From contig CM000434.1 of NCBI GenBank assembly GCA_000165345.1, forward strand, positions 736,001 to 800,000: DNA of 64,000 bases, written 5' to 3'. This document shows positions 13,259 through 63,268 of this stretch, piece by piece. The position numbers and the translations under genes are program-made. Every line of letters starts with the position of its first letter. Position 1 is the first letter of the stretch. The notes under the pieces were generated by a model, which saw nothing but the letters and a program-made list of their open reading frames with translations, ran no database searches and had not been told where the DNA came from.

Positions 13259-13812
13259 TTAATTAATATTCCTGCTAATATTATTACCCATCAAAACAAA
13301 TATATTATAGCTTTCTCTAAAAAATTGATTTGATTTTATCCAATGAGAAATTTAATTAATTCCTAATTTTCCGTTCCTTGCTTTTCTATTTACAGCTTTC
13401 AACATTTATTTTAATAATTTAATCATAAAACTTGTCGAAAAATTGCAAAAATACTCAATTTTACTCAATTTCTATTTTTTACTCTTTTTTTAGTACTTTG
13501 TCGCATCTGCATTATGGGCCGCATGCAATTTGCAACTAACCTTGCAATAATTTGCCCGGTATGCAACTGGCGTTGTCCACATGCAAATTATTATTACTAA
13601 TAACATCGGTATGTGCAAGTTTGCATGTAAACGAGCGCAAAAAAAAAAATATTACGTAATGTAAAAATATACAAAACAAAAATACACGTGTCAAAATATA
13701 TGTTAAATAAAATGGTTTATAAAAAATAAAAAATTTACTTAATATTTGAAGAAAGTATGAGAAATCAAATTATCGTATTTTATTGTAAGTAGTCAGAAAG
13801 ATGCTTAAGTAG

Positions 13813-15255
13813 TCAAATTTTTTTCTTAAAATGTGACTTTTTGATATTGTTGAGCTTAACTTTGAGCATCCAAGAAGGTACATCTGCGCCAGAAGACTTT
13901 ATAACCTTTGCAATGGACTTAATTTTTGGAATGTCTCTTAAAGTAAAGAAGGTTATTGCATATCCAGTTCTTCCAGCACGGCCACAACGTCCCACTCTAT
14001 GAATATAATTACTTGGAGAATGAGGGAAATCATAGTTAACTACGCAAGAAACGTTCTTAAAATCAACTCCTCTAGCCATTAAATCAGTGCAAATTAATAT
14101 CCAAATCTTACCAGTCCTAAACCTCTGAATAATGTTATCTCTCTTTACTTTTGGCATATCAGAATGTATAGCTTCCACAATCAAGTTATCATACATAAGT
14201 TTCTTAAAGAGTCTTTGAGCATCATCCTTGCTGTTTGTGAATACAAGAGTAGGAAGCATTATTTTGCCTTGCTTAATAAGTTGTCTTAATGATTCAATTT
14301 TTGCATCATCTTTTGTGACACAAACAAGCTCTTGAATGATGGTACTTGAAGCAGCTAATCTATGGCCAAGTGTTACTTTCACTGGAGATTTCATTATAGA
14401 ATCTGCTAAATTTATTACAATTTGAGGTAATGTTGCAGAAAATGCTGCAATCTGAACCTTTCCACCCTTTGGAATATTTGAATGTGATAGTATTTCATCA
14501 ATTTGAGGAGCAAAACCCATATCCAATAACTTATCAACTTCATCTAAAACAATCATTGAGCATCCTTGCAAATTAATTATATTATTACGACAAATATCTG
14601 CTAAACGATATGGAGTTGAAACCGCTATATCTAACCTCTTTGTGTTACTTTCTTGAGCTTTATCAATCTTGCCACTAATATATCTGCAACGATACTTTTT
14701 GCCATGAATATCTAAAATTATCTTAATCTCACGAACTATTTGCTGTGCTAACTCTCTTGTTGGACTTAAAATCAAGTTTGCACAGTATACTTTATCATTT
14801 TTTAATCTGCCAAGTATTGGAAGTATATAACATAAAGTTTTTCCCGAACCTGTTGGAGATTGTACAAGCAAATCAACTCCAGAAAATAGCAGAGGGATTA
14901 CCTGAGACTGGATTGCTGTTGGCTTTTGGTATTTCAATATGTTCATTATATTATCTAAAACCCAATCTGGAAGATTTCCACATTCTTTTATTTCTTTAAA
15001 TGTTAGTAATGGCATAGTCTTATTGTCTCCATCTACTGCTATATTCATTGAATTCCTCTTATCAATAATATATTCCTCATTTATTATCGTTTCTCCTTTA
15101 CTTTCTTTATCTTCTTTTTCAAAATTCTCTACGGAATTGCCATATTCTTCCAATCTTGCTTTTTCATAAGATATCTTCTCCCAAAGCTCTCTAGATTTTC
15201 TTCCGTTTGTAAATGATGTACCTGAAGCCAAAATTGAGAATGATGAACGATCCAT
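13813..15255 (-). CDS. DEAD-box-family ATP-dependent RNA helicase (motif II variant DEVD), ROK1/DDX52-like
   Basis: 480 aa. Motif I GSGKT, Ia PTRELAQQ, II VLDEVD, III SAT, VI HRVGRCGRAGRTG. ATG at 15253-15255 verified. Confidence 0.8.
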   Translation of the reverse strand: MDRSSFSILASGTSFTNGRKSRELWEKISYEKARLEEYGNSVENFEKEDKESKGETIINEEYIIDKRNSMNIAVDGDNKTMPLLTFKEIKECGNLPDWVLDNIMNILKYQKPTAIQSQVIPLLFSGVDLLVQSPTGSGKTLCYILPILGRLKNDKVYCANLILSPTRELAQQIVREIKIILDIHGKKYRCRYISGKIDKAQESNTKRLDIAVSTPYRLADICRNNIINLQGCSMIVLDEVDKLLDMGFAPQIDEILSHSNIPKGGKVQIAAFSATLPQIVINLADSIMKSPVKVTLGHRLAASSTIIQELVCVTKDDAKIESLRQLIKQGKIMLPTLVFTNSKDDAQRLFKKLMYDNLIVEAIHSDMPKVKRDNIIQRFRTGKIWILICTDLMARGVDFKNVSCVVNYDFPHSPSNYIHRVGRCGRAGRTGYAITFFTLRDIPKIKSIAKVIKSSGADVPSWMLKVKLNNIKKSHFKKKI

Positions 15256-16630
15256 TCTTAGTTTGTTATTGTAACTATTGCCACTAACTTATGCTTTAAG
15301 CTTTATTTAATAATTTTCTAAGCTAATACCTAATAAGAACTTTCCAATTATTATTTAGTCTCCAAATACAGCTTTCGTTATTTATCTAACTTTCTTTTTT
15401 TTTTATTTCCGAGAAAACTCCTTAAAGGCATACTTAACCTCTAATTTATATTATAAGATTCCTACGAATATTGGCGCCAAAAGTCAAATTATACAAATAT
15501 TGGTTGAGTTGAATAATGCATTAAGAATAAAATAAATTCAAAATAAAAAGAAACATATTATAAAAATATAATTATAGTTAGAAAAATGGTTAGCCTTACA
15601 AGTAATTCTATTATTAAAAATAACAATGTAAGTTGAACTGTACTAAGGACTTAAGATGCTTTAACTTCAAGTTAGCTAGTAATAGCAAGAGAAAAGTCAA
15701 GAAGATTATCAGAATTCCTTTTATTTCACTAAAAAGATTTTCAAACCTAACATGTAATTTTAATTCATCACTTAAACCAACTTGACATCAATCCCTCAAA
15801 CTTGAAATCTGTTCTGTCCTCAATATCATTTCAAAATAAGCATTAAAATAAAATAGAGAATTCCAATTTAGTATCCTCAATAAGCCTTATAGATGCTAAA
15901 AATAGTTTAAATTAATTAAGTTAACTCAAAATATTTATTTCTTTAATAGTTTTAATGGTTCATCAGAAATTTGAGCGAAGATTTCTGTTTTCAACTGCTA
16001 TTTAACAGATTCAATAGGGGAATCTTTGTTTCATCATATTAAACCATTAATGACATTATAAACTTACATTTTAATTTAAACCTTGAAAAAAAATAAGAGA
16101 ATATTTACTTCTGATTCATTTTGTCCCAAATAAATTTTTAGTACTCCGTGAAATACCAATTAAGACAAAAATCCAGAATGGCGCCAATTGTCATGGATGT
16201 GGCGCCAGAACATGCAATTTGAAGAAACCATTCAGAGAATGTTTTGAAGCAACATCAAGAATGGCAATATAGAAAAGAAGCAAGAAATCCGTATGGGAAA
16301 TACAAGTCATACACCGAAAGAAAATAGTAAAAACACGGTTTAAGTCATGAAATCTTTAATGACATTGCAATTGTATGCTATCTAAAAAAATATATATGTA
16401 GGTAACAAGTTCAAAGTAATGTTGCAAAGCTAATAATATTCAAACTCAAAATTGAAAATAGATACTGGAAAACTTTATATCAATTTAGCAATTTATAATA
16501 TGTAACCATGTGTGTTCCTAATGGATAGTAGCATTGTAAGTATCAACACTTGCAATAATAATCTAAACGTTATTCCATATAAATAAAAACCAAAAGTGTC
16601 AATTCTACATAAGAGCTACAAGTGCAATAT

Positions 16631-17242
16631 TTATGAGCAGCATCCGCCTTGTCTAATTGGCTGAGCTCCTGCTAACTTGGGACCTTGTTGCGCAGAGCCC
16701 CTTGTATTCTGACTATTCACTTGAACTCTCTTCTTGATCTCACCAGCCATTGTATGGAATGCTTGCTCAACATTATAAGCGTTTTTAGCAGAAGTTTCTA
16801 TAAATTTTATTCCATGAGAATCTGCAAGTTCTCTTCCCTCGTCTGATGTTACCACTCTCTTGCTCACAAGATCGCACTTATTACCTACTAACAATTTATT
16901 AACATTCTCCATTGCGTATCTATCAATCTCTTGGATCCATTGTTTAACATTATCAAAAGAATCTCTATCTGTAACATCATAGACAATAATGATTCCATGT
17001 GCCCCTCTATAATAACTAGAAGTAATTGTTCTAAACCTTTCTTGTCCTGCAGTATCCCAAATCTGTAACTTTACTGTCTTATTCTCCAAACTTATTGTTC
17101 TTATCTTGAAATCAACCCCAATTGTTGAAATATAACTGTCAGTATAGGTGTCATCAGCAAATCGTAAGAGTAAGCATGATTTACCTACACCACTATCTCC
17201 TATTAAAAGTAGTTTGAATAAGTAGTCGTACTCAGGATTCAT
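16631..17242 (-). CDS. RAB1: Rab1/Ypt1 small GTPase
   Basis: 203 aa. [22 protein letters not shown]…[14 protein letters not shown]…WDTAGQERF…GNKCD…ETSAK…GGCCS, a diagnostic Rab1 sequence with a C-terminal CC prenylation motif. Confidence 0.95.
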
Positions 17243-17579
17243 CTGAACCTATTATCCTGAGAAACTCTAAATTTTATATATTGTAATCACTTGATCCTTC
17301 CCTTATGTATCACCCTTACAACACAAAAAAAATTATCCTTTTCACTCAAGTTAGCGCTGAAGACGCCAGTAATTTGTATGGTTAAAATGCTTTTTTTCCC
17401 TCAAATTCACAATTTATGCTAGCCTCCAAAAAATGTGGTTCACAGATGGCGGGTTTTGTGGCGCCAAGAGTTCAAATTTTGTTATAATTTAATTTAAAAT
17501 ACTAATTAACTATGAAAAAACAAATATTGAAATAATAAAAATATTTTTAAAAAAAGTTATTATAGTTATCTTTAATACC

Positions 17580-17692: not shown

Positions 17693-17770
17693 TATTATAA
17701 TTTAATGGTGCACGTAATTTTGTGGCGCCAGAGTCATGCATGTAAAATAGTGTATTGGATTTTGCATGCG

Positions 17771-19767: not shown

Positions 19768-19888
19768 TTTTCATTTAAAATAATTGATTAATCAAATGTG
19801 TGGAAAAATAAATATAAAATTAAAAAGTAATAAAAATTTAAATTATATTGATCAAAATTGATTTGTATTCAACTTTTCTTAGTATTAA

Positions 19889-27536: not shown

Positions 27537-27657
27537 TCATATATTCAATCATAAAACAACACATTTTATTGCATTATTAGCACTTTTTATACACTACATT
27601 AATTTCTCTACTCTTATTATTATTATTTTTTTGCTGTTCTTGTTTTAAATAGTTTAT

Positions 27658-27704
27658 CCACATTGCAGTTATTTTTTTAATTGCATGCATGCAATTCAAT
27701 GTGG
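27658..27704. repeat. Perfect 18-nt palindrome AATTGCATGCATGCAATT (27679-27696) flanked by inverted CCACATTGCA / TGCAAT..CAATGTGG
   Basis: Read directly from the sequence. Centred on a GCATGC doublet. It sits in the RPN11–GBE intergenic region, with TATATACCGGTAATGCAAAATTTGCAAG following at 27720-27748. Confidence 0.6.
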
Positions 27705-28531
27705 ACAATACAAATGTTGTATATACCGGTAATGCAAAATTTGCAAGTAAATTACGTGTGAAGCAGATGGATAGTGAAAATGGAAGCAACTATTAATTAA
27801 TTATTTAAAATAATGTAATAATTTTTTTTGGGAGAAAGAATTTTTTTTGAGTTGAGAAAATAGTGAAATAAAAGTACCAAAATTAAGGTTAAATAAAATT
27901 AGCAATGATAATATTGTCATAAATATTACGAAAAGTAATATTATAAGTGAAATTTGGAGTGGGAATATTTTAATGGGGAAAAAATCCAATAAATTGAACA
28001 GAAATTTTCAAGGCTCGTAAAAAAGTGTTAACATTTTTTCGATAGTGAGCCCCCCACAGAAATCAATAAATAGGGGGAAAATAAAGAGTGTCTATTAGGC
28101 TTAAAAGATTTATATATTTTTCTCACTGTTAAAATAAAAGTACAAATATAAAAGGAAAGTTGAAAGAATTGAAGAGTTTTTTAACTACCAACTGTTTGTA
28201 TTCTTGTTTAACACGGCCTTAGAGGTGGCAAAGAGGCAGAGAAAATAAGATAGTATTCACACGGGAGAATTTTGTGAAGTGATTCAAGAAAAATAAAGGG
28301 TATAAGGCTTTAAGATATTAATTTTTAGTTAATTGGTTTATATATTATATAATTTATGGAAACATAGTATAATTTGAATACAGGGACTTCAAATACAATC
28401 TAGAGAAGATTTAAAGTGTTTATACAAAACATAATCTTTTTTTTTTGAATATAAAATAGAGATTTATGATCCATTTTTCTTTGAAATACAGATTTTAAAC
28501 GTGATTCCATTGCATGAAAGGCCCGTGAGAA

Positions 28532-31624: not shown

Positions 31625-31635
31625 AAGAGAACGTT

Positions 31636-37636: not shown

Positions 37637-38261
37637 GTTAAATTTTGACTTTCTCTCCTGGATTTCCTCGAAAATAGCAATTAAATCAGTTGTATTTCTT
37701 CCTCCTTTGAAACTTTTTAATGTTTAAATTACACAATGTCTACTATTACCATGAATAACTCCAGTTTTACCTCCTCTTTTCATTTCATTGCTCAATCCTG
37801 CTCTTGACCAACACAATACTGAGTCTTAATTATTCTATCTAAACCCTTTCTCTATTTCTGCTTCTTTTCCTCCGTTTTCTTCCCCTTTTTTCATTCAAAA
37901 TAAACTAAATTTTTCAGAATGGTAGTTTTTTTAGTCATCTTAAATTAATTCAGAAATTCCAAAAAGCCCGCCTAAATTTTATGTCAATAATAACCAAAAA
38001 TAGGCAACCGGTATATGGGAAAAAAAGAATAAAGTAAAAAAAAAGTTGGGGGGGAAGTGAGGATTAGAATGATTTAGGATATTGAAGAATAAATTAGTCA
38101 AAAGTATTTGGCAGAATATAGGTTTTCTGAAGAATAAGAGAGATTGATTAAGAATTGTAAAAGAAATTATAGAGTTTAATATTACTTGAAAATATGAAAA
38201 AAAATTAGAATTTGCATGCAAAGCCCGCCAAAACATAAATATATTTTAAGGAAGAATTGAA

Positions 38262-44942: not shown

Positions 44943-45856
44943 CCTCTTAATTTAAAAAGAAATTAGACCTGTGAAATCTTCTATAACAGAAATAGCAAGT
45001 TAGTATTTTTTTTTTTTCTGAGTGGAAAAAAAAATCAATTAACTTGTTTCTAAATTAATCCAAACTTTCTCCTTCAAACAAAGTTTCTGTTTTTCTTATT
45101 TATATTTAATAGAAAACAGAAAATAATTAACCGGTCTTTTTTTCAACCTTATATAATACTTTACTTATATTAAGTTAATATAATAATTAATTAATATTTA
45201 ATTTGAGACAAAACATTTAGTAGACTATTTATTTCAATGAGACAGTATTAATAAATTATTTTTTTTAATTAAAAAAATTAATTATTTGTTTATATATTAA
45301 AACTTTTCTCTATTTATTAATTCCTTTCATTAAATTGTCTCTATTATTACTATTAATACCGGTTCGGTACCCCAATTATGGCGCCACAATGTTCCCGCCA
45401 CATCGTGTGCTACATTATTTAAGAAGAAAATAATGGAAAAAAAAGGAGAAAAAAGGAAATGGAAAGAGAATAACAGAGCAAAATCAGAAATAATTATGTT
45501 TATATTAGGAGATGATTAATTTGATTTCTAGAATGGAAATAATTTGTTGTTTGTGCTTTGTATCGAATATAAGAGGGGAGAGGTGCATTGCATGCATTTT
45601 GAGATCTTGAAAAATAATTTATTTGAACAAATTATTTTTCATTATTGTTTTTTTTCTTTTCTTTCTCTTTTATTGTAGAATTTGGAAAAAAAGTAATTAG
45701 TAAGTTCATATATCTTTTAAAATATAGTATTTTTGGGATTATCTGTACTATTCTTTTAAAATAAGGAAAGAATATATTGTAGCAGGAGTAATCCTGGAAT
45801 GGTTTGTATTATTTCTATTGAGATGTTTGGGATTAAGTTTGGAGGAAATAAAAGTA

Positions 45857-47029
45857 ATGGAAGATTGGCTTCCTGAGTGGGTAAAAATAGGAAACTATGA
45901 ATTGAGAGAAATATATATACCAAAGAGTAAAAAAGAGTTGGGAATATGCCAATATAATATATTAACTTCCGGTAATAAGTTGAAAAAAGATCACGAATGG
46001 TTTTTAGAGAATCGAATTGAGTATTCAAGAAAGAATGGGTATTGTTATTTTCATTTGGATTTAAGTTTTGGTGAGGTTAGAAATCCTCATTATTGGAGAT
46101 ATATTGGAATAATTAAGTTATATAAAAAAGTTCAAGGCTTACTTTCTGATCATAAAGAGCATAATTATTTGGTACTATATATGGATTCCGATACCATGTT
46201 TTCAAGATTTTCTGTAAGAATTGAGGATTTTCATGAAAAGATGAAAGATTCATTTCTATATCTATCAGTGGATGATAATTGTGAATTACAGCATTATTTA
46301 TTAAATGTTGGAGTCTTATTAATGTCTTTAAGAAGATTAGAGACATTAATATTTTGTATTCAAGTACTGGCTTTACAGAAGACTCAGTCTATACTATCTT
46401 ATTCATCAGAATGGAGTAGATCGGGTTTGAATGATCAAAACATTGTTATTTCTGTTTTAAATGATACAGGAAGGTTGGATATTGAGAATATACAAAGTTA
46501 TTGTTTGAGGAAGAAGAATTCATCTTGGTTGGATAATGAAGATCAGTGGATTAATTTGAACTATTCAAAGCAAAACAAAGGAGTAGTGGTTGTTCCCAGT
46601 TTATATTTGAACCAAATTATAAGGATGGATTATATAATGAAATCAAGCGAGTTAAAAACCAATCTTTGGTTAGAAAGGTCATGGATTATTCATTTTAGTG
46701 GATCTAATAGACTAGAACAATGCTTTATGATACAAAAACTTTGTTTAGATAGGATTAGAAAGTTCAAAACAAAGTATAATCATTATTTTAAGGAATGTCC
46801 AGAGAAAATGGAAGAATTGATGACCAAAAATGAACTTAAAAAGATTGAAACTCTATTTTCATTGAAGATGGATTCAAGTTTAGATCCTAATAACTATATT
46901 GGACAAAATTATTTGGTATGGATTAAAGATCTCGAACAGATAGATCTTGGAATAAGAAACTTAAGTAACAGATACTCCATTCTAATTAAAAGGTATGTTT
47001 TAATAAGAATAATAGAAAGGAAGTCTTGA
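45857..47029 (+). CDS. GT34-like glycosyltransferase (DxD motif 'YMDSDTMF'); possibly extended by two 3' exons to 47457
   Basis: 'HNYLVLYMDSDTMFSRF' resembles the GT34/GT32 'W(L/M)DSDA(M/L)F' DxD block; '…WIIHFSGSNR' resembles the C-terminal HFAG block. The track start 45818 is TTG; the first ATG is 45857. No N-terminal TM seen. Possible continuation: GTATGT donor at 46993, exon 47105..47246, GTAAGT donor at 47247, exon 47326..47457. Both exons are stop-free in phase. Confidence 0.45.
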   Translation: MEDWLPEWVKIGNYELREIYIPKSKKELGICQYNILTSGNKLKKDHEWFLENRIEYSRKNGYCYFHLDLSFGEVRNPHYWRYIGIIKLYKKVQGLLSDHKEHNYLVLYMDSDTMFSRFSVRIEDFHEKMKDSFLYLSVDDNCELQHYLLNVGVLLMSLRRLETLIFCIQVLALQKTQSILSYSSEWSRSGLNDQNIVISVLNDTGRLDIENIQSYCLRKKNSSWLDNEDQWINLNYSKQNKGVVVVPSLYLNQIIRMDYIMKSSELKTNLWLERSWIIHFSGSNRLEQCFMIQKLCLDRIRKFKTKYNHYFKECPEKMEELMTKNELKKIETLFSLKMDSSLDPNNYIGQNYLVWIKDLEQIDLGIRNLSNRYSILIKRYVLIRIIERKS

Positions 47030-47608
47030 GAAAATTGAATATTAACTTTAATCTTTAATTACTATAAATTTTGCTATTTTAATATTGTGATTTCATTATT
47101 TTAGAATAATTAAGCTTCTAAAACTAAGTAGAACCAGACAATTCACTCAAAAATCAAAAAGAGAACTAGTAGGAGCAGTTCTACAATTCTTAGAGAATTC
47201 AAACAAATTTGGATTAATTTTTGAGAAACTATATCTCACAGGAATAGTAAGTTTATATAAAATCTTTTCTCTATTTTCCTCATTTTTCCAATTTATTTAA
47301 TTTTTCTTTTTATTCCCTCTTTCAGTCAAACAGAAGAACAATAAAGTATGAAGCAAAAAATGCTATTGAATTCTCTAATATATTCAACTTCTTTTCTCTA
47401 CTAAACAAATGCCCTAATAATTTTGAATATGAAAAAAAATTTACCTCAAAATTTTGAATCACGTTACCTTTTAAGATCACATAAAAATATCCGATACCTG
47501 CAGAATGCATGCATGCAACTGTGCATGCATGTGACCGGTAATGACATGAGAAAAAAATTTGAAGAAATATGGAAAAAAATTAAATAAATTTTATGTATTT
47601 TTTTTATT

Positions 47609-48681
47609 CTAGCAGCAAAATAAGTTTTTGAGGTTTATAATGATTCTTTCTACACAATTAACAAGTTGATGATTATCAAAAATGATGGCAGAGTTTTCAA
47701 GTATTGAATGAGGTATATAGTCGTCTTGTAGGCCTAAGGAGATAGTTCTAATTCTTCCAGCTCCTCTTTGGTTTTCTGGAGAATTTAGTTGATAAGATTC
47801 AGCTCCATAATTGTTTGTAAGTTCTTTGACTCTTTGTTCAAGTCTAAAACATCTTACTCTAAGCCCATCATTTTCTAATCTAAATTTCTCCACTAAAGTG
47901 GAAGTTTCATTAGCTATACTTTTTAAATTATCTTTTTCAAATTTTATCCTTTTTAATGATTCTATAATATCTTTAGATTGTTTATATTCTTCTTTTAAGC
48001 TTTGAATATGAGATTCTCTGAAGTTTTTTTTTCAATAAAGAAAATAAAACAAAATAAGATCAAGTCAAATTCTTAAATAGTGGCTAAATATTGTTTAAGT
48101 TTAACTTACAGAATTGATATATTGTTACTCTGTTGACTTATTTGAGATCTTAAATTTGAGTTCTCCACTTCCAATTGTCTGTTTTTCTGATTCCATTTTT
48201 GGATTCCAACTAGTTTCATTTTAAAAAAATATATATTTTTCATTCATTTCATAAAACTAAACTTACCTTGACTTTCAAATAGAAGATTCTGTATATTCTC
48301 GGTACCCTCAATTTCACAAATTGATTTCCATAAACCTTGAAATGATATAATTTCTTCTAAAGCTATAATAAATTGTTTACACTTTGAAATGATTTGAAAT
48401 TGCTCCTCTAAGCCTTTTTTTAAATTCAAATTTATTTGATCCTTCACATCTAACTCTTCCTGAAGTATATTATTTGTCTCAAGATATAATTTAGATATAC
48501 ACTCTTCACATATTAATTTATCGTATATTTTATATTCAACTGTATTACTTATGTTGCAATTTGAACATTTAACTCTTCCACACAAAGTGCAACAAATTTT
48601 ATGAAACTCATCTAAATTCATACATTCTTCACATATTTCAGTATCTTTCATTAATTCTCTACTTTCAATATTCCTATTCAA
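47609..48681 (-). CDS. Cys-rich zinc-finger + coiled-coil protein (hypothetical); 3 exons merging two listed ORFs
   Basis: Exon A is 48267..48681 (MNRNIESRELMKDTEICEECMNLDEFHKICCTLCGRVKCSNCNISNTVEYKIYDKLICEECISK…FESQ + 1 nt), followed by a GTAAGT donor (plus 'acttac' 48261-48266). Exon B is 48110..48209 (VGIQKWNQKNRQLEVENSNLRSQISQQSNNISIL), preceded by acceptor 'ctag' and followed by a GTAAGT donor (plus 48101-48109). Exon C is 47609..48017 (ESHIQSLKEEYKQ…VEKFRLENDGLRVRCFRLEQ…NLFCC*). Phases are consistent and the product is 307 aa. The N-terminal CxxC×4 pattern is B-box/Atg14-like. Confidence 0.55.
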
Positions 48682-49223
48682 ATATAAAATGCATGAAATT
48701 CTTTTTTTACTATGATCTTTTTCTTTTTTCCACTTACTCTGGTGAGTTTTCTCTAATTTCTCTTTCTATTGGTCCTGGACTCCAACTCATTTCTCTTTTT
48801 TTACTTTTTTTTTCTTTTATTTTTCCTTTGAATCTTTAATATTCAATTTTTTTAAGTTATTGCATTTTTATGCATATTCACCCATTCCCCCCTTTATTGT
48901 CCTCTATACCGGTGTTTACCGTTATTTTTTTTTGTGGACAAAAAAAGTGAGCGGGAAACATCGAACGCCGGTATATAAATATTAAAGCATTAAAAAAAAA
49001 AATATTTTGATTAGTCATTTTTGACAGGAAGAACTTTGTATATTTTTTTTTTCCTCAAAAGTTTTAAATTGAGGAAAATATAAATTTATATTCAAAGTAC
49101 AAAGAAGCCTGTACTCTGATACCATAGGATATAGTCGAAGCAATAAACATTACATTAATAAAGGAGTGAGGAGGGTTTAGAAAATTACAAAATTACTACA
49201 CAATTTAAGCAAGTCAGAAGGCA

Positions 49224-50893: not shown

Positions 50894-52183
50894 TTAAATA
50901 AATTCATCCAAGTCATCCTCAACCACAGCATAATCTTGGAAGTCTACTTTGTATCTCAAAATACCACCAAAGCCACCAAATCCTTTTTGGAATTGATTTC
51001 CTTCTTGAGACTTATTTGTAACAAATTCCAATTGAGCTCCGTAATTTTGATATGTATTTACAAGCCATTCAGTCAAAGGAAGTATTTCAATAACATCAAG
51101 TTCTGCTCCAGTTTCTGGATCCTTGAATTTGGATTCATCATGCTGTTCAGTTGGGCTATTTAAGAATACTTTTTCTTCGCCAGTAGATGGGTTCTTAACA
51201 ACCATCCTTTTAGTTTCTAAGTTTTCCCATACAATCAACAATTCAATTGCACCCATTTCTAAAGCTTGAAGGGTTTCATTAATTCCGTAAACATACTTTC
51301 CAGTATCCTGTGCAACTTCATCAAAGAATTTAGTGATGAGTTTCTTCTCCTGAACAAATTTAACATTTTGAAGCGCATCAGAAGATAGCTCAATGGCTTG
51401 ATTAAAACCATTATCACCTCCATATGAAACATCAACAATCTTTAGGATCTTGCTTGCTAGTCTTTGATCAAAAATATCACTTTGAGCTAGCTCATTTTTA
51501 AAATCAGCACTTCCTGCTAATATCAAAGCCGCAACATTAACTTGGTCGTTAGTAATAAACATAGTAGTTGCAGTTTCAGCAACTTTTCTCAAATAATTGT
51601 GACGCTTTTCCATTCTCAGACGAGCAAAACGTAAAGCTGATTGACCACCACGACCGTGCTTTTTTGGTAAATCCACATTAAATCTAAGCAAGACTTCTCT
51701 CGAACTACCTTGCACAACACCATACAAGGCACCATTACCATCAACAATAATAAATCCAAATTTATCATCAGTCTCCAGTAACTCTTTAAGAGCATCAACA
51801 TGGAACTTATTATCACATAAATAAAGAGACGTATTAATAGGTTTAAATGGCTCAAAGTCAATATTTACTTTCTTTTCCTTCCCATCTTCAGTAATTAAAG
51901 TTCCACAATAAACTACTAATCCATTTTGAGGAGTTCTATTATATAATTTTAGACGTTGTTGAGTACTTGTAATTGCTGATAAAACCGAAAGTCTATTTAC
52001 TCTACTCTTAATATTAGAAGCTGTACCATACTCATCAGCAAGCATTTTTGAAATTCTGGATATTTCATCCTTTGGTTTAATAACCAAAGAAATCATAGAA
52101 GTACCATTTCCTCTAGCAGCTTCCAGTGTCGCTATTAGTCTTCTGACTTTCCACTGTTTAACGTTTGTATCGTTATCACTCAT
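50894..52183 (-). CDS. ERF1: Eukaryotic peptide chain release factor subunit 1 (eRF1)
   Basis: 429 aa. NIKS decoding motif ([10 protein letters not shown]), GGQ peptidyl-hydrolase motif ([16 protein letters not shown]), conserved C-terminal domain. Confidence 0.95.
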
Positions 52184-53248
52184 TTCTTGTCTTCAATTTA
52201 ATACTTTTCTATCTTGTTTCCTTTGGCAATATTTTCACCTCTATTTCATAATATTCTCAATATTTTCTCAAAACTACAATTGGAAAATACTGGTTGAGTA
52301 AATTCTTGGAACTTTTTGGTATTTTTTCAAAACCAATAAATTACTCTTTATTTCAAACTTTTCGACAAAAAAGCAACGCTTGGCGCGTAGTCTCTCTTAA
52401 TTATTACCTCCATTGCTCAGCCATTAACTTTTTCTTTAGGAAAATTAAAAAAAATTTAAAAACCAAAAAACTCCACCTGTCAATTCTCAAATCCATCAAA
52501 TTAAAGCATTACATTTGTTTGCATGCACTAAAAGTTGTTCTTGCATGTGCTTGTCCACATGCTGACACGTGTACTATGTTTTCTTATACCGGCATTTGCA
52601 TGCACGCACTTGTGTATGAAGAAAAAAAATTATGACACGTATCAAAATAATTTACTAAAAATAAAAATTAAAGTGTGAATAGTTTGTGTTTTAGATTTAA
52701 TTTGGTTATTTTTTTCCTTTAAAAATTATATAGTCAATTATTTCAAGAGTTTTATAATTGATTAAGATATGTAGAAAAAAGAGAAATTGTGTAAAGAAGG
52801 AAATAAAGACATTAGAAGAATATAAAAGGGATGATGGCCAGTTCAGAATTATCAATAAGGTAAAATAATTTACGAAATAAAAGTAAGCACATTTCAATAA
52901 ATAGTAAAATATAAATAAAATAAATTTTTTTTTTCTCCAAATAGCATAATATATTTTTTATGCCTTTTAAGAGGAAGAACTTTATATGGAGTGTGGGGGG
53001 AAGATCAAAAAATATGCTCTGAAAAAAAGAAAAAATTGAATTAAGAAAAAATTATTATAAAACCAGTCAAATAAATAAAAATACATGAAATAAATATAAT
53101 TCCAGAATAATATTAGTAATTAGAAACTTTTTAAGTCAAACTATTGACTCACAGATATATGATGATCATACAGCAATTGGCTATATGTGAAAACTATTAG
53201 AGTAAACTTAATATTAATTTCATTTTAAGAACTCTATGAAAATCCAAA

Positions 53249-59725: not shown

Positions 59726-60138
59726 ATCAATACTTAGAGTATTTTTGGATATTATTTTCCGCACAATTTGAAGCCTCCATTTTTCCTTTAAGGAAAATAT
59801 TAACAAATTGATAAAGGTACCGAATTTCAAGATCACTTGGCGCCAAGTTGGCGCCGAGAAACACTACGAGTTAATTGAGGATGTATTAAGAAAAAAAAAA
59901 GTCAGAGATAAGAGGAAGTAATTGTTATTATTATTTAATATTGCATTTATTGGATTAAAATAATTGAAATAAAGGTATCTATTATATAAATTGGAATCTA
60001 ATTAACAAAAATAAGGTATTAAATAGTGAAGGAATACCTAGTCAATATTAAGTAGACAAGGGGGGAAGGATTTGAAATAATACATAAGCTGATTTCATAA
60101 GGTAAATAGTGAATAGAATAGAAGAACTTTAGAGATAT

Positions 60139-63078
60139 ATGATAGACTCGAACCAACAACAGAATGGTTTACCTTCCACATTTTTTGGTCAGTCTGGGAT
60201 AGGGTATAAAATATGTGATCGACTTGGAGCAGGAAGCGCTTCGGTGGTTTTCAGATGTAAATCTGTGGGAAGAGTTAGAGAAGATGGAATAATGGTACCT
60301 ATTGATGAGGAATATTTTGCTGTGAAAATTATTGATATGAAGTCGATATATTTGACTCCAGATTTTATGGATAAAAAGAACAGGTTATTAGAAGAAGCAA
60401 TGATATTACACAAATTAAGACATCCAAATATTGTAAGCTTGGTTGATTTTTCTGATTCTGGTGATACATTTTACTTGGTTATGGATTTAGTTGAAGGGGG
60501 AGAGCTTTTTTACAAGATTGTAGAACATGGTTCACTATCAGAATCAAGTGCAAGATTTATATTAAAACAAGTTGTTGAAGCTTTGATATATATGCATCAA
60601 AAGGAAATAATTCACCGTGATTTGAAACCTGAGAACATTTTGATTGAAAAGTCATATCCTGGGGAGTATTTTGTAATTAAAGTAGCAGATTTTGGAGTTG
60701 CAAAGTTTTTAAGGCAAGGATATACACAAGCAAGAACTTTGGTTGGGACACCACAATATTGGGCTCCTGAGGTGTTAAGCGCCTCTAATAGTGGAGAATC
60801 TTATGGTACTGAGGCTGATTTATGGTCTTTGGGGGTCTTATTTTATGTAATGCTTGGCGGAGCTTTTCCATTTGATGAAAGAAAAGGCAATTTAGAGCGT
60901 TTAATTAGAGAAGGAAATTATCATTTCAGATATCCTCGATTTAAGAGGGTTAGTGAGCAAGCTAAGCAATTGATTAGGAGACTGTTAACAGTTGATCCAA
61001 GTCAGAGGATGACTCTTTCTGAGTTAAAAAATGATCCTTGGATGAAAATTAAGTGTGAAAATGAGCCAAATATGGCAGACATACAAGATAATATTGGCTC
61101 TCCTCTTCCTGAGAGACATGAAATCGTACTATTTAAATCAATGGAAGATGCTAATAATACAACTTTTAGCAAAGCTATTACTAAAAAAGAGACTATAAAG
61201 ATGATTGAGACAGCTGAGAATGGTAAAGGTTTTTCAATTCAAAATAAATCTATCAACTCATCAAAAACATCATCAATTATGGACATTAATAGCTTGTTAG
61301 ATCTTCAATTAAGTGTTGCATATAAGCTACATGGAATTTATATTGCTTTTAGACATAATTCAGCAATTTGTAGAGTAATTCAGCAACACATTCACAAGTG
61401 GAGAATATTACAACAAAGATCTTATATAGCAATTGGGAAGTTTAAACAAACTTGTGAATCTGTATTGGATGAACTTCCTGATTTTTTATTAGCAGTTAAC
61501 ACAAATGAGCCAAAGCTTGCAATTGAGTTGTTATCGCATGTCAAAAGTTTAGTAGATGTAACACAAAATGATGTTGAAGATATTCAAAGCTCTTACAACA
61601 ATTTTTTATTTGAATTATCCAATTTTGTGGAATCTGTGAGAGATATTAAAAGAATTACAGAGACAAGTGTTAATGCTATTCCATATGAAGCCAATAAAGA
61701 AACATACGAAACGGAAGTAAGAGATCAATCATCATCTTTAACAGGAGGTGGTAGTTCTTCAATGAATTTGGATAGAAATAAAGAAGGATTATATGATTCT
61801 CGAGCAAGGAGTGATTTTGATTCTTCTTCAATGGATATAAGTTCAAATGGCTTTAACACAAATGAAAGTGTGAGTTTTTCAAGATCCGGATCAAATATTA
61901 TGAGTAATTCAAACGGTATTGGCAATGGAATTAAAAGTGAATTTGATCCAAGTATATTTATTGGTTATAATTCAGCAAGGGATAGAGTAATAAGAAAGAT
62001 TACAGATATATTCTTAAATTCAGAAATTAATGCTTTATTTGATAATTTAGAGAATGAAGATCCAAGTTCAAAGATTACAGATATAGGTGGAGAAGGGAAT
62101 GTTACTACTATGGGGGGGGTACCGGCTGAGGAATTTAACAGTAATAATTTATCATCAGATTTATCAATACAGGTTCATGGAAAGTCTCAATTTAATCAAA
62201 ATTCATCATATATTACTACTTCTTTGGCAAGTACAAGAGACTTACTTTTAGATTTCTTGTTTCTCCCTGCTAGTATATGTAATGTTCCTCCAACAGGAGT
62301 TGAATCCCTACTACAGGAAGGAGTGGATTTTGATCTTCCAATCTTGTCAAATTTTGAAATAACACCAGAAAAACTTAATAGCTTGGGAAGAGATTATGAA
62401 GGTGGAGGTTCTTCCGGGGGTGGTTCTGTTGAAGATATGGCGAATGTTAATATGTATAGAATTGACAGAGTTCATACTAATAGCAATGGTTCAGAATTCT
62501 CATCTAAATCTGGAGCAAAGAAAATCAATTCTACAGAAAAAATAGATTCTCAAATGGCAACAGAAGAGTGTAAGAATGGTGTGGAAAATAGATTAGAAGA
62601 ATCAATGATGGGATCAATGTCTAGTGGATTTGATTCTTTCACAGAAAAAGGTGGATACGCAATTCCAGGCTCAAATTCATCTACAATTTATGAACAAAGT
62701 GTTATAAAGAGGAGGAGTGAGAATCAGCTAAAGATTTCTTACATATTGGTAAGAGTTTTGGCTCAACTTAGAATGATTGAGAGTATACTAGGAAGATGCG
62801 TAGCTTTTTGGGGTAATATGAATATTATGATAGAGAAGATTTTACAGCTAAGGCAACATGCTGAAAGACTTTTAGGGTTTACAGGAAATCCCGTATTAAG
62901 AACAAGGTTTGACGAAAGGGTTGAATCATATAGAGAATTCTGGCAAGAGTTAAGAGATATTTGTGATTCCTACCTTCGCTCATCTCAAATTAGGCAACTA
63001 AGCCTTGAGAATCAGGTTCATGAGCTGCTTGATGCCGCCTCTAAAGTGGATACAGTTTTCAATATGAATATGAAATAA
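60139..63078 (+). CDS. Ser/Thr protein kinase (CAMK-like catalytic domain) with a long Ser/Asn-rich C-terminal region
   Basis: GxGxxS loop (LGAGSASVV), VAIK-like 'FAVKII', HRDLKPENILI, DFGVAK, GTPQYWAPE. The domain occupies ~aa 20-300 and the C-terminal 680 aa have no recognised domain. Confidence 0.8.
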   Translation: MIDSNQQQNGLPSTFFGQSGIGYKICDRLGAGSASVVFRCKSVGRVREDGIMVPIDEEYFAVKIIDMKSIYLTPDFMDKKNRLLEEAMILHKLRHPNIVSLVDFSDSGDTFYLVMDLVEGGELFYKIVEHGSLSESSARFILKQVVEALIYMHQKEIIHRDLKPENILIEKSYPGEYFVIKVADFGVAKFLRQGYTQARTLVGTPQYWAPEVLSASNSGESYGTEADLWSLGVLFYVMLGGAFPFDERKGNLERLIREGNYHFRYPRFKRVSEQAKQLIRRLLTVDPSQRMTLSELKNDPWMKIKCENEPNMADIQDNIGSPLPERHEIVLFKSMEDANNTTFSKAITKKETIKMIETAENGKGFSIQNKSINSSKTSSIMDINSLLDLQLSVAYKLHGIYIAFRHNSAICRVIQQHIHKWRILQQRSYIAIGKFKQTCESVLDELPDFLLAVNTNEPKLAIELLSHVKSLVDVTQNDVEDIQSSYNNFLFELSNFVESVRDIKRITETSVNAIPYEANKETYETEVRDQSSSLTGGGSSSMNLDRNKEGLYDSRARSDFDSSSMDISSNGFNTNESVSFSRSGSNIMSNSNGIGNGIKSEFDPSIFIGYNSARDRVIRKITDIFLNSEINALFDNLENEDPSSKITDIGGEGNVTTMGGVPAEEFNSNNLSSDLSIQVHGKSQFNQNSSYITTSLASTRDLLLDFLFLPASICNVPPTGVESLLQEGVDFDLPILSNFEITPEKLNSLGRDYEGGGSSGGGSVEDMANVNMYRIDRVHTNSNGSEFSSKSGAKKINSTEKIDSQMATEECKNGVENRLEESMMGSMSSGFDSFTEKGGYAIPGSNSSTIYEQSVIKRRSENQLKISYILVRVLAQLRMIESILGRCVAFWGNMNIMIEKILQLRQHAERLLGFTGNPVLRTRFDERVESYREFWQELRDICDSYLRSSQIRQLSLENQVHELLDAASKVDTVFNMNMK

Positions 63079-63248
63079 TCCCAATATTTTGGTACGAGTG
63101 CTCTATGACTGTACCGTTGCCATTAATAAAACTACGACCACTTTTTACCTTCCTGCAATTCTAATAATAATAAATGAATAAATAATAATAGTAATTAGTG
63201 TTTATAATAGAATTAATTATTTTCTAAATTGCATAGTTTCTTTGTTTT

Positions 63249-63268
63249 GCATGCATGCATGCATGCAT
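63249..63268. repeat. (GCAT)5 microsatellite followed by an E2F-like box TAGGCGGGAAAC (63281-63292)
   Basis: 'gcatgcatgcatgcatgcat', in the convergent 3'–3' junction between the kinase and the partial minus gene. Confidence 0.6.

What the first reader, a model, noticed from the sequence alone, without database searches (positions are those of the whole stretch)
13505..63268. GCATGC-rich clusters occur in convergent 3'–3' junctions as well as promoters
There are four dense GCATG(C) clusters. The first is 13505-13640 (gcatgcaatttgcaact / ggtatgcaact / cacatgcaaatt / gtatgtgcaagtttgcatgtaa), between a helicase 3' end and the coiled-coil gene 5' end. The second is 27679-27696, the palindrome 3' of RPN11. 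The third is 47506-47543 (atgcatgcatgcaactgtgcatgcatgtgaccggtaatg), between two convergent stops: the GT34 gene or its extension, and the zinc-finger gene at 47609. The fourth is 63249-63268, (GCAT)5 between the kinase stop and the partial minus gene stop. A further cluster at 52521-52609 sits in the divergent eRF1/PI4K promoter. Presence in 3'–3' junctions argues against a purely promoter role. Alternatives are a 3'-end or termination function, boundary or insulator activity, or unannotated antisense or ncRNA promoters. 'ACCGGTAATG' follows the cluster at both 27724-27732 and 47535-47543.
Basis: seen in the sequence. Interest (0 to 1): 0.55.

Follow-up and report, generated by a model that had tools for sequence, protein, structure and literature searches.

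The report
Conserved ApiAP2 sites between convergent genes
In this Cryptosporidium parvum segment, the well-known TGCATGCA transcription-factor motif also forms conserved clusters between two pairs of tail-to-tail genes, most likely marking unannotated antisense or non-coding RNA promoters, a class already described in this parasite.

Summary
The window is Cryptosporidium parvum. GCATGC occurs 22 times against 4.1 expected, and TGCATGCA 16 times against 0.6. Annotated gene models confirm that two of them lie in true 3'–3' junctions: GT34-like>|<zinc-finger and kinase>|<gamma-tubulin-complex protein (GCP).

The motif is the published AP2_1 element, BGCATGCAH, which several C. parvum ApiAP2 domains bind in vitro.

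New here: both convergent-junction clusters are kept in C. ubiquitum and C. canis, and kinase|GCP also in a fourth species, inside otherwise diverged spacers. The kinase|GCP module has a fixed layout: TAATTAGT, then GCATGC(n), then the E2F-like GCGGGAA, then the GCP stop about 40 nt on. Only 2 of 8 convergent junctions examined carry the motif, and hairpin potential is not conserved. That argues against a general terminator or RNA-structure role.

Published work already places E2F and AP2_1 as the top motifs within 100 bp upstream of C. parvum antisense lncRNAs, which cluster at gene 3' ends. The likeliest reading is therefore gene-specific promoter-type modules for unannotated antisense or non-coding transcripts. 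I found no transcript evidence for these loci.

Verdict: new members of a known kind, of modest interest.

The parts
63248..63269 (.). Cluster 4: T(GCAT)5G. It gives four overlapping TGCATGCA (AP2_1) sites in the kinase>|<GCP convergent junction.
   Evidence: At least one GCATGC is retained at the orthologous position in C. ubiquitum (1 copy), C. canis (3) and Cryptosporidium sp. SRR31860986 (2). TGCATGCAT is the longest invariant run in the 4-species alignment, with no permutation out of 5000 matching it (P<0.0002).
63283..63290 (+). E2F-like GGCGGGAA, next to cluster 4.
   Evidence: It matches published motif 4, TTTGGCGGGAAV (PMC3734150). GCGGGAA is conserved in all four species, in the same orientation, 4-22 nt after the last GCATGC and 37-45 nt before the conserved GCP C-terminal codons.
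63192..63199 (.). Conserved TAATTAGT block, 55-75 nt upstream of the GCATGC array in the kinase|GCP junction.
   Evidence: Invariant in 4 species. Function unknown. Possibilities are a kinase 3'-UTR element or an initiation region.
47506..47543 (.). Cluster 3: TGCATGCATGCA (47506-47517), TGCATGCATG (47522-47531) and ACCGGTAATG (47534-47543), in the GT34-like>|<zinc-finger convergent junction.
   Evidence: GCATGC is retained 66-80 nt from the zinc-finger stop in C. ubiquitum (L005 4320) and C. canis (L006 4495-4508), next to a GGTACC(C/G)GGTACC element. It is absent in C. felis, C. bovis and C. muris.
27679..27755 (.). Cluster 2 module. It holds the 18-nt palindrome AATTGCATGCATGCAATT, CAATGTGGACAA (reverse complement of TTGTCCACATTG), TATACCGGTAATG and TTACGTGTG. 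It lies in a tandem junction, 143 bp after the RPN11 stop and about 850 bp before the glucan-branching-enzyme ATG.
   Evidence: The whole ~100-bp block, and its position about 150 bp from the RPN11 stop, are conserved in C. ubiquitum and C. canis. GCATGC is also present at that position in C. felis.
13505..13692 (.). Cluster 1 module: GCATGC 13521, CCGGTAT 13556, TTGTCCACATG 13573-13583, GCATGT 13623, ACACGTGT 13684. It lies in a tandem junction, 246-381 bp upstream of the ATG (13259) of the 491-aa minus-strand gene and downstream of the DEAD helicase stop (13813).
   Evidence: The blocks TGCATGTGGACAA, ATACCGG, CATGC and TGCAGATG are invariant in C. parvum, C. ubiquitum and C. canis.
52520..52604 (.). 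Cluster 5 module in the divergent eRF1<|>PI4K spacer: TGCATGCA 52520, GCATGT 52543, TTGTCCACATG 52551-52561, ACACGTGT 52565, ATACCGG 52586, TGCATGCA 52597.
   Evidence: The block is conserved in C. ubiquitum and C. canis, and GCATGC is also present in C. felis. TACCGGTA, ACACGTGT and CATGCA half-sites persist in C. bovis. TACCGGTA and CATGCA persist in C. muris.
45857..47457 (+). GT34-like gene. It is 469 aa with an intron in the newer model. The older model is 390 aa and ends at 47029.
   Evidence: (L001 and L004 models).
47609..48790 (-). It has introns and converges on the GT34-like gene.
   Evidence: An AATAAA signal lies immediately after its stop, on the minus strand at 47603-47608.
60139..63078 (+). 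Protein kinase gene (979 aa).
   Evidence: A(A/G)TAAA signals at 63125, 63169 and 63177 all precede the GCAT array.
63324..64000 (-). 3' part of the gamma-tubulin complex protein (GCP) gene. The stop codon is at 63324-63326.
   Evidence: orthologues carry the GCP_N and GCP_C domains; reading frame and stop. There is no A(A/G)TAAA on its strand anywhere in the junction.
1028..1035 (.). Single TGCATGCA, 95 bp upstream of the INCENP-like ATG. Other single sites in 5'-bearing spacers are at 17764-17769 (1 nt after the Nop2 stop, 522 bp before the Rab ATG), 38213-38220 and 45589-45596.

Best explanation
The clusters are arrays of the AP2_1 element (TGCATGCA / BGCATGCAH). This is the binding site of the TGCAT-recognising ApiAP2 transcription factors of Cryptosporidium. 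The arrays are embedded in compact, selectively maintained cis-regulatory modules.

**Ordinary promoter positions (clusters 1, 2 and 5).** The module has a recurrent four-part grammar: GCATGC, TTGTCCACATG, ATACCGG and ACACGTGT.

**Convergent junctions (clusters 3 and 4).** The module is simpler:
- GT34|ZnF has a GCATGC array plus TACCGG.
- Kinase|GCP has a GCATGC array plus an E2F-type GGCGGGAA.

**Proposed mechanism.** This part is inferred, not shown. ApiAP2 factors, together with E2F/DP at kinase|GCP, bind these sites and open a small nucleosome-free region in the 3'-3' spacer. Pol II then initiates there, probably in both directions. The products would be stage-specific antisense or non-coding transcripts running back over the 3' ends of the flanking genes. 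For kinase|GCP the start would lie about 30-60 nt from the motifs, close to the GCP stop codon.

**What is shown and what is inferred.** Shown here:
- motif identity and enrichment;
- the true convergent context;
- junction-specific conservation with fixed spacing.

The factors that bind the motif are known from published in vitro work. Actual occupancy and the existence of transcripts at these loci are inferred.
For: 1. **Motif identity.**
   - The sites match the published AP2_1 consensus.
   - The motif is bound in vitro by cgd2_3490, cgd1_3520, cgd8_3230 and cgd5_4250.
   - The 2025 review also lists AP2-F as AP2_1-like.
2. **Enrichment.** The motif is strongly enriched and is non-coding-biased.
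3. **True convergent context.** Gene models confirm it for clusters 3 and 4.
4. **Junction-specific conservation.**
   - The same junctions carry or lack GCATGC across C. parvum, C. ubiquitum, C. canis and a fourth species.
   - Per-junction chance of one GCATGC is 0.5-4%.
   - Only 18% of alignment columns in the kinase|GCP spacer are invariant.
   - TGCATGCAT is nonetheless the longest invariant run there, with no permutation out of 5000 matching it (P<0.0002).
5. **Fixed module layout in four species.** TAATTAGT, 55-75 nt, GCATGC(n), 4-22 nt, GCGGGAA, 37-45 nt, GCP last codons.
6. **E2F distribution.**
   - The palindromic E2F-type word TTSGCGCC has 21 hits. Of these, 15 lie in tandem or divergent spacers, 3 inside genes and 3 in the left-edge 5' region.
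   - None lies in any convergent junction.
   - So the GGCGGGAA beside cluster 4 points to promoter-type function.
7. **Published lncRNA data.**
   - C. parvum antisense lncRNAs are biased to the 3' ends of sense genes.
   - E2F and ApiAP2_1 are the top two motifs within 100 bp upstream of them. TTGTCCACATK is a fifth (PMC7840661).
   - One listed antisense RNA, Cp_lnc_329, has AATTGCATGCA at -11 and TTGTCCACATG at -23.
8. **Other apicomplexans.**
   - In T. gondii, gCATGCa sits about 82 nt upstream of 44% of transcription start sites, and promoters there are inherently bidirectional.
   - In P. falciparum, intergenic TGCATGCA sites organise nucleosomes.
9. **C. canis annotation.** It calls a plus-strand gene antisense to the GCP 3' end, starting about 110 nt after the module.
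Against: - **No transcript found.** Six k-mer sets flanking or spanning clusters 2, 3 and 4, plus one site inside the 1871-aa gene, are absent from the held part of the 2021 lncRNA FASTA and motif table. That file is truncated, and a later annotation lists 766 lncRNAs that I could not query.
- **No accessibility evidence.** Sporozoite ATAC-seq peaks in C. parvum showed E2F motifs but no AP2 motifs (bioRxiv 10.1101/2025.01.17.633476). So there is no chromatin-accessibility evidence for AP2_1 sites at that stage.
- **A 3'-UTR reading is possible.** By poly(A)-signal positions, the clusters probably lie inside the 3' UTRs of GCP and the GT34-like gene. An ordinary 3'-UTR location cannot be excluded.
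- **Conservation is clade-limited.** The convergent-junction clusters are absent in C. felis (GT34|ZnF), C. xiaoi (kinase|GCP), C. bovis and C. muris.
- **Small sample.** Only 6 convergent junctions lie in the window, 8 counting the flanks of orthologous loci.
Confidence: 0.5

Rival explanations
1. Downstream (3') regulatory element for the flanking protein-coding genes. The same ApiAP2 and E2F sites act as a shared enhancer-like or gene-loop element. They control the promoters of the short neighbouring genes, such as the 1.2-kb zinc-finger gene or GCP, without producing a stable transcript of their own.
For: - The sites are TF-binding words under selection.
- Genes here are short and spacers tiny. 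The promoters of the zinc-finger gene (ZnF|NLE spacer) and the kinase (PI4K|kinase spacer) lack GCATGC.
- In tandem junctions, GCATGC sits far from the downstream ATG (262-849 bp) and close to the upstream gene's stop (1-292 bp). So action at a distance already seems necessary.
- No lncRNA was found at the loci.
Against: - No enhancer-type or loop-type regulation has been described in Cryptosporidium in the papers read.
- The spacing of GCGGGAA to the GCP stop is conserved at 37-45 nt. That looks more like core-promoter geometry than a position-free enhancer.
- Promoters in related parasites fire bidirectionally wherever such sites open chromatin.
Confidence: 0.2
2. Roadblock, insulator or termination element. 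ApiAP2 proteins bound to the palindromic array physically stop or separate converging polymerases in very short 3'-3' spacers. This would be analogous to Reb1/Rap1-type roadblock termination in yeast. That analogy comes from my own knowledge and was not tested.
For: - The clusters sit in the two shortest motif-bearing spacers, 151 and 245 bp.
- The motif is palindromic and so is direction-independent.
- In each junction, one of the two genes (GCP, GT34-like) lacks an A(A/G)TAAA signal before the cluster.
- In tandem junctions the sites tend to hug the upstream gene's stop. Relative positions are 0.53, 0.01, 0.15 and 0.08 (computed by me from the distances; n=4, roughly P=0.015 under a uniform model).
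- TGCATGCA sites phase nucleosomes in P. falciparum.
Against: - Six of the 8 convergent junctions examined lack the motif in every species, including very short ones (NLE|eRF1, RPL4|CC491, eIF2B|RRM at 55-138 bp, VTC|PUB at 85-104 bp). It is not a general solution.
- Its per-junction frequency is about the same as at promoters.
- An E2F site accompanies cluster 4.
- None of the papers read supports this role.
Confidence: 0.13
3. RNA-level 3'-UTR element. GCAUGC repeats, self-complementary and hairpin-forming, act in the mRNAs of GCP and the GT34-like gene on stability, localisation or 3'-end processing.
For: - By poly(A)-signal positions, the clusters probably lie inside those two 3' UTRs.
- The C. 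parvum versions fold better than shuffled controls, with z = -2.3 and -2.8.
- The distance to the minus-strand gene's stop is conserved, at about 56-64 nt and 66-80 nt.
Against: - Hairpin potential is not conserved. The orthologues give z = -0.5, -1.6 and +0.8 for kinase|GCP, and -0.9 and -1.4 for GT34|ZnF. C. ubiquitum keeps only a single 6-nt GCATGC.
- What is conserved is the exact DNA-binding word, whatever the copy number.
- The same word clusters in spacers that are clearly promoters.
Confidence: 0.07
4. Neutral tetranucleotide microsatellite, or chance. (GCAT)n arises by slippage in AT-rich spacers and has no function.
For: Copy number varies between species, from 1 to 5 units, as expected for a slippage-prone repeat.
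Against: - Expected GCATGC count in all convergent spacers together is 0.05.
- The site is retained at the same relative position in 3-4 species whose spacers are otherwise only 18% invariant.
- It is paired with conserved E2F or TACCGG partner motifs at fixed spacing.
- The motif is a known TF site.
Confidence: 0.03

Closest known systems
AP2_1 motif (5'-BGCATGCAH-3' / TGCATGCA) of Cryptosporidium and other Apicomplexa, also called TRP-2 or gCATGCa in Toxoplasma and PfM24.1 in Plasmodium
   Same: - The sequence word is identical.
- The motif is palindromic.
- It is strongly over-represented in non-coding DNA.
- It occurs in clusters upstream of genes, including a polysaccharide-metabolism gene (the glucan branching enzyme), as reported (PMC3734150; PMC4117751; PMC7854901; PMC4797266).
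   Different: - The published analyses read here looked at regions upstream of genes or upstream of lncRNAs.
- They did not classify sites by junction type or test cross-species retention.
- Two of the clusters here are in strictly 3'-3' spacers.
Promoter regions of C. parvum antisense lncRNAs (Li et al. 2021, PMC7840661)
   Same: - They are located at the 3' ends of protein-coding genes.
- E2F/DP1 and ApiAP2_1 are their top upstream motifs, co-occurring upstream of 17 lncRNAs. TTGTCCACATK is another.
- Bidirectional promoter activity was proposed.
   Different: - No lncRNA from that catalogue maps to the loci studied here, within the part of the supplement that is held.
- Membership is therefore inferred from sequence only.
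General-regulatory-factor sites of budding yeast (Reb1, Rap1, Abf1) that both open promoters and block read-through polymerase. This comparison is from my own knowledge and was not tested.
   Same: Short sequence-specific sites in a compact genome, found at promoters and at gene ends, and associated with nucleosome depletion (the latter shown for TGCATGCA in P. falciparum).
   Different: - No roadblock or insulator activity has been shown for any ApiAP2.
- The motif is missing from most convergent junctions here.

Membership tests
AP2_1 (TGCATGCA) ApiAP2 binding-site motif | Match to the consensus BGCATGCAH / TGCATGCA | tested here: met
   There are 16 exact TGCATGCA matches in the window, including 3 in cluster 3 and 4 in cluster 4. 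The consensus is from PMC3734150.
AP2_1 (TGCATGCA) ApiAP2 binding-site motif | Over-represented in non-coding relative to coding DNA | tested here: met
   Genes carry 0.12 hits per kb. Convergent, divergent and tandem spacers carry 3.47, 0.94 and 0.59 per kb, 10 to 100 times the shuffle expectation.
AP2_1 (TGCATGCA) ApiAP2 binding-site motif | Bound by TGCAT-recognising ApiAP2 domains (cgd2_3490, cgd1_3520, cgd8_3230, cgd5_4250) | not testable with these tools
   In vitro binding to the motif is published. Occupancy of these particular sites in vivo is unknown. Sporozoite ATAC-seq peaks showed no AP2 motifs.
AP2_1 (TGCATGCA) ApiAP2 binding-site motif | Functional constraint, seen as retention in orthologous spacers | tested here: met
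   Presence or absence per junction is conserved across C. parvum, C. ubiquitum, C. canis and, in part, C. felis and a fourth species. The footprint test gives P<0.0002.
C. parvum antisense/lncRNA promoter (E2F and/or AP2_1 within 100 bp of the lncRNA start) | Located at the 3' end of a sense protein-coding gene | tested here: met
   Cluster 3 is 49 nt from the GT34-like stop and 66 nt from the zinc-finger stop. The cluster 4 module is 34-57 nt from the GCP stop.
C. parvum antisense/lncRNA promoter (E2F and/or AP2_1 within 100 bp of the lncRNA start) | Carries the characteristic motifs (E2F/DP1, ApiAP2_1, TTGTCCACATK) | tested here: met
   Cluster 4 has AP2_1 four times plus GGCGGGAA. Cluster 3 has AP2_1 three times.
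C. parvum antisense/lncRNA promoter (E2F and/or AP2_1 within 100 bp of the lncRNA start) | A non-coding transcript starts within about 100 bp downstream | tested here: inconclusive
   K-mers flanking or spanning clusters 2-4 are absent from the held part of the 2021 lncRNA FASTA and motif table. The file is truncated.
Terminator, roadblock or insulator element of convergent gene pairs | Present at most or all convergent junctions, especially short ones | tested here: not met
   Only 2 of 8 distinct convergent junctions carry GCATGC. NLE|eRF1, RPL4|CC491, GBE|h1871, h204|VTC, eIF2B|RRM and VTC|PUB lack it in every species available.
Terminator, roadblock or insulator element of convergent gene pairs | Conserved RNA or DNA hairpin | tested here: not met
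   z-scores are -2.3 and -2.8 in C. parvum, but -0.5, -1.6, +0.8, -0.9 and -1.4 in the orthologues.
Terminator, roadblock or insulator element of convergent gene pairs | Transcript 3' ends or polymerase pausing coincide with the element | not testable with these tools
   This needs poly(A)-site mapping or nascent-RNA data. Only poly(A)-signal hexamers could be mapped.
Known structured ncRNA or tRNA gene hidden in the spacer | Match to an Rfam family or a tRNA model | tested here: not met
   There are no Rfam hits at gathering threshold and no tRNAs anywhere in the window.

The most novel reading that the evidence does not exclude
TGCATGCA-binding ApiAP2 factors act as general-regulatory-factor-like proteins in the ultra-compact Cryptosporidium genome. 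The same palindromic site arrays would open promoters and, when placed at gene 3' ends, act as polymerase roadblocks or insulators that keep converging or tandem transcription units apart.

This would explain two things:
- The clusters sit in the shortest 3'-3' spacers.
- In tandem junctions they hug the upstream gene's stop codon.
Probability: 0.12. Interest if true: 0.65.

Novelty: new member of a known kind. Interest (0 to 1): 0.3.

Why it matters
Gene regulation in Cryptosporidium is poorly understood. Nothing I read shows in vivo occupancy of an AP2_1 site in C. parvum.

These two convergent-junction modules are small, sharply delimited and conserved in several species. Their only plausible annotated targets are the 3' ends of four genes. 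That makes them clean test cases for two questions:
- Do AP2_1 and E2F sites at gene ends drive antisense RNAs?
- If so, what do those RNAs do to the overlapped genes?

The class itself is already described in the literature: E2F and AP2_1 motifs upstream of 3'-biased antisense lncRNAs. The gain is therefore incremental:
- specific, conserved candidates;
- evidence that the motif's frequency in 3'-3' spacers is about the same as in promoter spacers;
- a recurrent motif grammar, including an apparently undescribed ATACCGG partner.

Tried and rejected
1. **Hidden ncRNA genes in the spacers.** Rfam at gathering threshold and ARAGORN found nothing in the whole window.
2. **Conserved hairpin or terminator structure.** C. 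parvum folds well, but the orthologues do not. Rejected.
3. **Direct transcript evidence.**
   - I made five k-mer or motif-instance searches of the Li et al. 2021 lncRNA FASTA and motif table.
   - They covered sequences flanking or spanning clusters 2, 3 and 4 and one intragenic cluster.
   - All were negative for these loci.
   - The supplement is truncated as stored, so this is weak negative evidence.
4. **The CpBGF 766-lncRNA annotation.** The paper is held, but not its GFF. Not usable.
5. **Bankier et al. 2003,** the original TGCATGCA report. Not held.
6. **Deep conservation.** C. bovis, C. xiaoi and C. muris lack exact GCATGC in the convergent junctions. The modules are therefore restricted to C. 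parvum, C. ubiquitum, C. canis and the unnamed fourth species.
7. **Literature on a termination, insulator or 3'-junction role for TGCATGCA.** One search found nothing relevant.
8. **Literature on a TACCGG motif in Cryptosporidium.** Only primer sequences turned up.
9. **Genome-wide junction-class statistics.** These could not be done. Only the window and 16 fetched loci were available, and the locus look-ups are exhausted.

Full report
**Source and gene map**

The window is Cryptosporidium parvum. It is 31.5% G+C, and its eRF1 gene (50894-52183, minus strand) is 100% identical to C. parvum eRF1. I took gene models from NCBI annotations of the same sequence and from Pfam scans. They give 26 genes and 25 junctions:
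- 6 convergent;
- 5 divergent;
- 14 tandem.

**Checking the observation**

- GCATGC occurs 22 times against 4.1 expected. TGCATGCA occurs 16 times against 0.6. No shuffle reached either count.
- Hits are concentrated in spacers:

| Class | GCATGC hits | Length | Shuffle expectation |
|---|---|---|---|
| Genes | 6 | 48.6 kb | 3.7 |
| Convergent spacers | 7, in two clusters | 2.0 kb | 0.05 |
| Divergent spacers | 3 | 3.2 kb | 0.13 |
| Tandem spacers | 6 | 10.2 kb | 0.56 |

- Clusters 3 and 4 are in real 3'-3' junctions.
- In the newer model, the GT34-like gene ends at 47457. That leaves a 151-bp gap with the cluster in the middle.
  - The kinase ends at 63078. The minus-strand gene is a gamma-tubulin complex protein (GCP) whose stop is at 63324-63326.
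- Clusters 1 and 2 are in tandem junctions.
- There are two small corrections.
  - Cluster 1 contains only one exact GCATGC.
  - ACCGGTAATG is at 27725-27734, not 27724-27732. It does occur exactly twice, against 0.01 expected.

**What the motif is**

It is the published AP2_1 motif, BGCATGCAH.
- It is over-represented upstream of about 1,000 C. parvum genes, and the enriched functions include polysaccharide and carbohydrate metabolism (PMC3734150).
- Four C. parvum ApiAP2 domains bind it in vitro: cgd2_3490, cgd1_3520, cgd8_3230 and cgd5_4250 (PMC4117751). A 2025 review also lists AP2-F as AP2_1-like (PMC12246861).
- In Toxoplasma, the same word sits about 82 nt upstream of 44% of transcription start sites, and promoters there fire in both directions (PMC7854901).
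- In P. falciparum, intergenic copies organise nucleosomes, while coding copies do not (PMC4797266).

**Comparative evidence**

I fetched the orthologous regions from seven other sources:
- C. ubiquitum;
- C. canis;
- C. felis;
- C. xiaoi;
- C. bovis;
- C. muris;
- an unnamed Cryptosporidium from run SRR31860986.

Gene order is conserved.

Presence or absence of GCATGC is a property of each junction, not of junction type.
- RPN11|GBE has it in C. parvum, C. ubiquitum, C. canis and C. felis.
- eRF1|PI4K has it in the same four species.
- RPL32|GT34 has it in C. parvum, C. ubiquitum and C. canis. C. felis also has a copy in the unresolved ZnF–RPL32 interval, where its GT34 gene is not annotated.
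- GT34|ZnF has it in C. parvum, C. ubiquitum and C. canis.
- Kinase|GCP has it in C. parvum, C. ubiquitum, C. canis and the fourth species.
- NLE|eRF1, RPL4|CC491, PI4K|kinase and others lack it in every species.

The chance of one GCATGC in any single such spacer is 0.5-4%.

In the four-species alignment of the kinase|GCP spacer, only 18% of columns are invariant. The invariant runs of 8 or more are:
- TAATTAGT;
- TGCATGCAT;
- the GCP C-terminal codons.

A run of 9 never arose in 5000 permutations.

The layout is fixed: TAATTAGT, then 55-75 nt, then GCATGC in 1 to 4 overlapping copies (one to five GCAT units), then 4-22 nt, then GCGGGAA, then 37-45 nt, then the last GCP codons.

In GT34|ZnF, the last GCATGC lies 66-80 nt from the zinc-finger stop in all three species. 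It sits next to a TACC(C/G)GG element. C. parvum itself has mutated that element, but two other fetched assemblies carrying the identical eRF1 protein (L002, L004; species not identified) keep it as GGTACCGGATAC.

The convergent-junction clusters are missing in C. felis (GT34|ZnF), C. xiaoi (kinase|GCP), C. bovis and C. muris. They are therefore restricted to one clade.

**Motif grammar**

Clusters 1, 2 and 5 share four components:
- GCATGC;
- TTGTCCACATG, with 3 hits in the window, exactly these three clusters, against 0.38 expected;
- ATACCGG, with 14 hits against 1.1 expected;
- ACACGTGT, or TTACGTGTG in cluster 2.

The components are conserved as blocks in C. ubiquitum and C. canis.

Cluster 4 instead pairs with an E2F-type GGCGGGAA. 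The palindromic E2F word TTSGCGCC has 21 hits in the window:
- 15 lie in tandem or divergent spacers;
- 3 lie inside genes;
- 3 lie in the left-edge 5' region;
- none lies in a convergent junction.

An E2F-type site beside cluster 4 therefore points towards promoter-type function.

- *General termination or insulator element.* Only 2 of 8 distinct convergent junctions carry the motif. Very short ones (55-138 bp) do not. The per-junction frequency is similar in all three classes: 2 of 6 convergent, 2 of 5 divergent, 5 of 15 tandem.
- *RNA hairpin.* The C. parvum arrays fold better than shuffles, with z = -2.3 and -2.8. The orthologues do not, with z from -1.6 to +0.8. C. ubiquitum keeps a single 6-nt copy.
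- *Poly(A) signals.*
  - I used the published Cryptosporidium signal A(A/G)TAAA.
  - The kinase and the zinc-finger gene have signals before the clusters.
  - GCP and the GT34-like gene do not.
  - So the clusters probably lie within those two 3' UTRs. This keeps an RNA-level or read-through-related role formally open.
- *Hidden ncRNA genes.* There are no Rfam or tRNA hits.

**Why antisense or non-coding promoters are the best reading**

Li et al. (PMC7840661) catalogued 396 C. parvum lncRNAs.
- 92% are antisense and are biased to the 3' end of the sense gene.
- The top two motifs within 100 bp upstream are E2F/DP1 and ApiAP2_1. They co-occur upstream of 17 lncRNAs. TTGTCCACATK is another upstream motif.
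- The authors proposed bidirectional promoters.
- One listed antisense RNA has AATTGCATGCA at -11 and TTGTCCACATG at -23. That is the same pair as in cluster 2.

The C. canis annotation also calls a plus-strand gene antisense to the GCP 3' end, about 110 nt beyond the module. This is weak, indirect support.

There is evidence against this reading:
- None of my k-mer probes around clusters 2-4 hit the held, truncated part of that lncRNA catalogue.
- I could not query the later 766-lncRNA annotation.
- Sporozoite ATAC-seq peaks show E2F motifs but no AP2 motifs.

That last result is expected if the relevant ApiAP2s act later in development. Even so, it means there are no chromatin data for these sites.

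**Verdict**

These are selectively maintained, gene-specific ApiAP2 cis-regulatory modules, with E2F at one of them, lying in 3'-3' spacers.

| Reading | Probability |
|---|---|
| Promoters of unannotated antisense or non-coding transcripts | about 0.5 |
| Downstream regulatory element for the flanking genes | 0.2 |
| Roadblock or insulator | 0.13 |
| RNA-level 3'-UTR element | 0.07 |
| Neutral microsatellite or chance | 0.03 |

The motif, its binding factors, and its presence upstream of 3'-biased antisense RNAs are all published. This is therefore a new member of a known kind, and interest is modest.

Noticed in passing
window 571-580, 13556, 19741, 27723, 38008, 45356, 48906, 48968, 52586 (intergenic); 5653, 32721-32730, 41529 (in genes): ATACCGG, often the palindrome TACCGGTA, occurs 14 times against 1.1 expected. 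It sits mostly in spacers next to GCATGC or E2F sites. It is conserved in orthologous promoters as far out as C. bovis and C. muris. It is not in the published C. parvum motif tables I read, and a literature search found only primer sequences. It may be an undescribed partner motif.
   Followed up: partly
window 13573-13583, 27698-27708, 52551-52561: TTGTCCACAT(G/T) occurs only in clusters 1, 2 and 5, always within about 50 nt of GCATGC and ATACCGG, and with an ACACGTGT-type box within about 110 nt. This is a four-part module grammar, conserved in C. ubiquitum and C. canis. The word equals 'motif 5' found upstream of lncRNAs by Li et al. 2021. No binding factor is known.
   Followed up: partly
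window 34519-34556 (inside the 1871-aa minus-strand gene): An intragenic promoter-like cluster: TGCATGCATGTGCAT followed by TTCCCGCCGGCGCCAA (two overlapping E2F-type sites). It may be an internal or antisense start site. A k-mer about 60 nt away was not in the held lncRNA set.
   Followed up: partly
window 41486-41567 (inside the SPX/VTC gene) and 4741-4750 / 5419-5428 (inside the Sel1-repeat gene): Further intragenic groupings of GCGCGCC or TTGGCGCCAA with GCATGT/CATGCA and ATACCGG. They resemble the intergenic modules.
   Followed up: no
window 27537-28531 (RPN11 to branching-enzyme spacer): An unusually long spacer of about 1 kb whose length is conserved (943-1007 bp) in four species. The GCATGC module always sits at the far end, about 150 bp from the RPN11 stop and 765-860 bp from the branching-enzyme ATG. 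A second conserved block, GGAGTGGGAATATTTTAATGGGG, lies near 27955-27980. This suggests a long leader or an unannotated transcript.
   Followed up: partly
window 63192-63199; L005 19963, L006 20024, L013 10456: An invariant TAATTAGT block lies in the kinase|GCP spacer, 55-75 nt from the GCATGC array in four species. Around it, about 30 nt are nearly identical between C. parvum and C. ubiquitum. Function unknown.
   Followed up: partly
L006 20215-20784 (C. canis): The C. canis annotation calls a 143-aa plus-strand gene antisense to the 3' part of GCP and truncates GCP to 673 aa. The call begins about 110 nt after the GCATGC/GCGGGAA module. It may reflect antisense transcription or may be a prediction artefact.
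   Followed up: no
window 52985-53000; L005, L006, L007, L015 equivalents: A G-box run (GTGTGGGGGGAAGATCAAA) about 255 bp upstream of the PI4K ATG is conserved in every species examined except C. muris (C. felis was not examined), including C. xiaoi and C. bovis. It is probably the PI4K proximal promoter. That would leave the GCATGC module nearer to eRF1.
   Followed up: no
window 17764-17769, 38213-38220, 27683, 13521: In the four tandem junctions that carry GCATGC, the site lies nearer the upstream gene's stop (1, 48, 147 and 292 bp) than expected under a uniform placement. With n=4 this gives roughly P=0.015, which is too few cases to conclude anything.
   Followed up: partly
L002 and L004 around 14700 compared with window 47484-47500: Two other fetched assemblies that encode the identical eRF1 protein (species not identified) read GGTACCGGATAC where this window reads GGTATCGGATAT. 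So C. parvum has lost a TACCGG element that flanks cluster 3 in those two assemblies, in C. ubiquitum and in C. canis.
   Followed up: no
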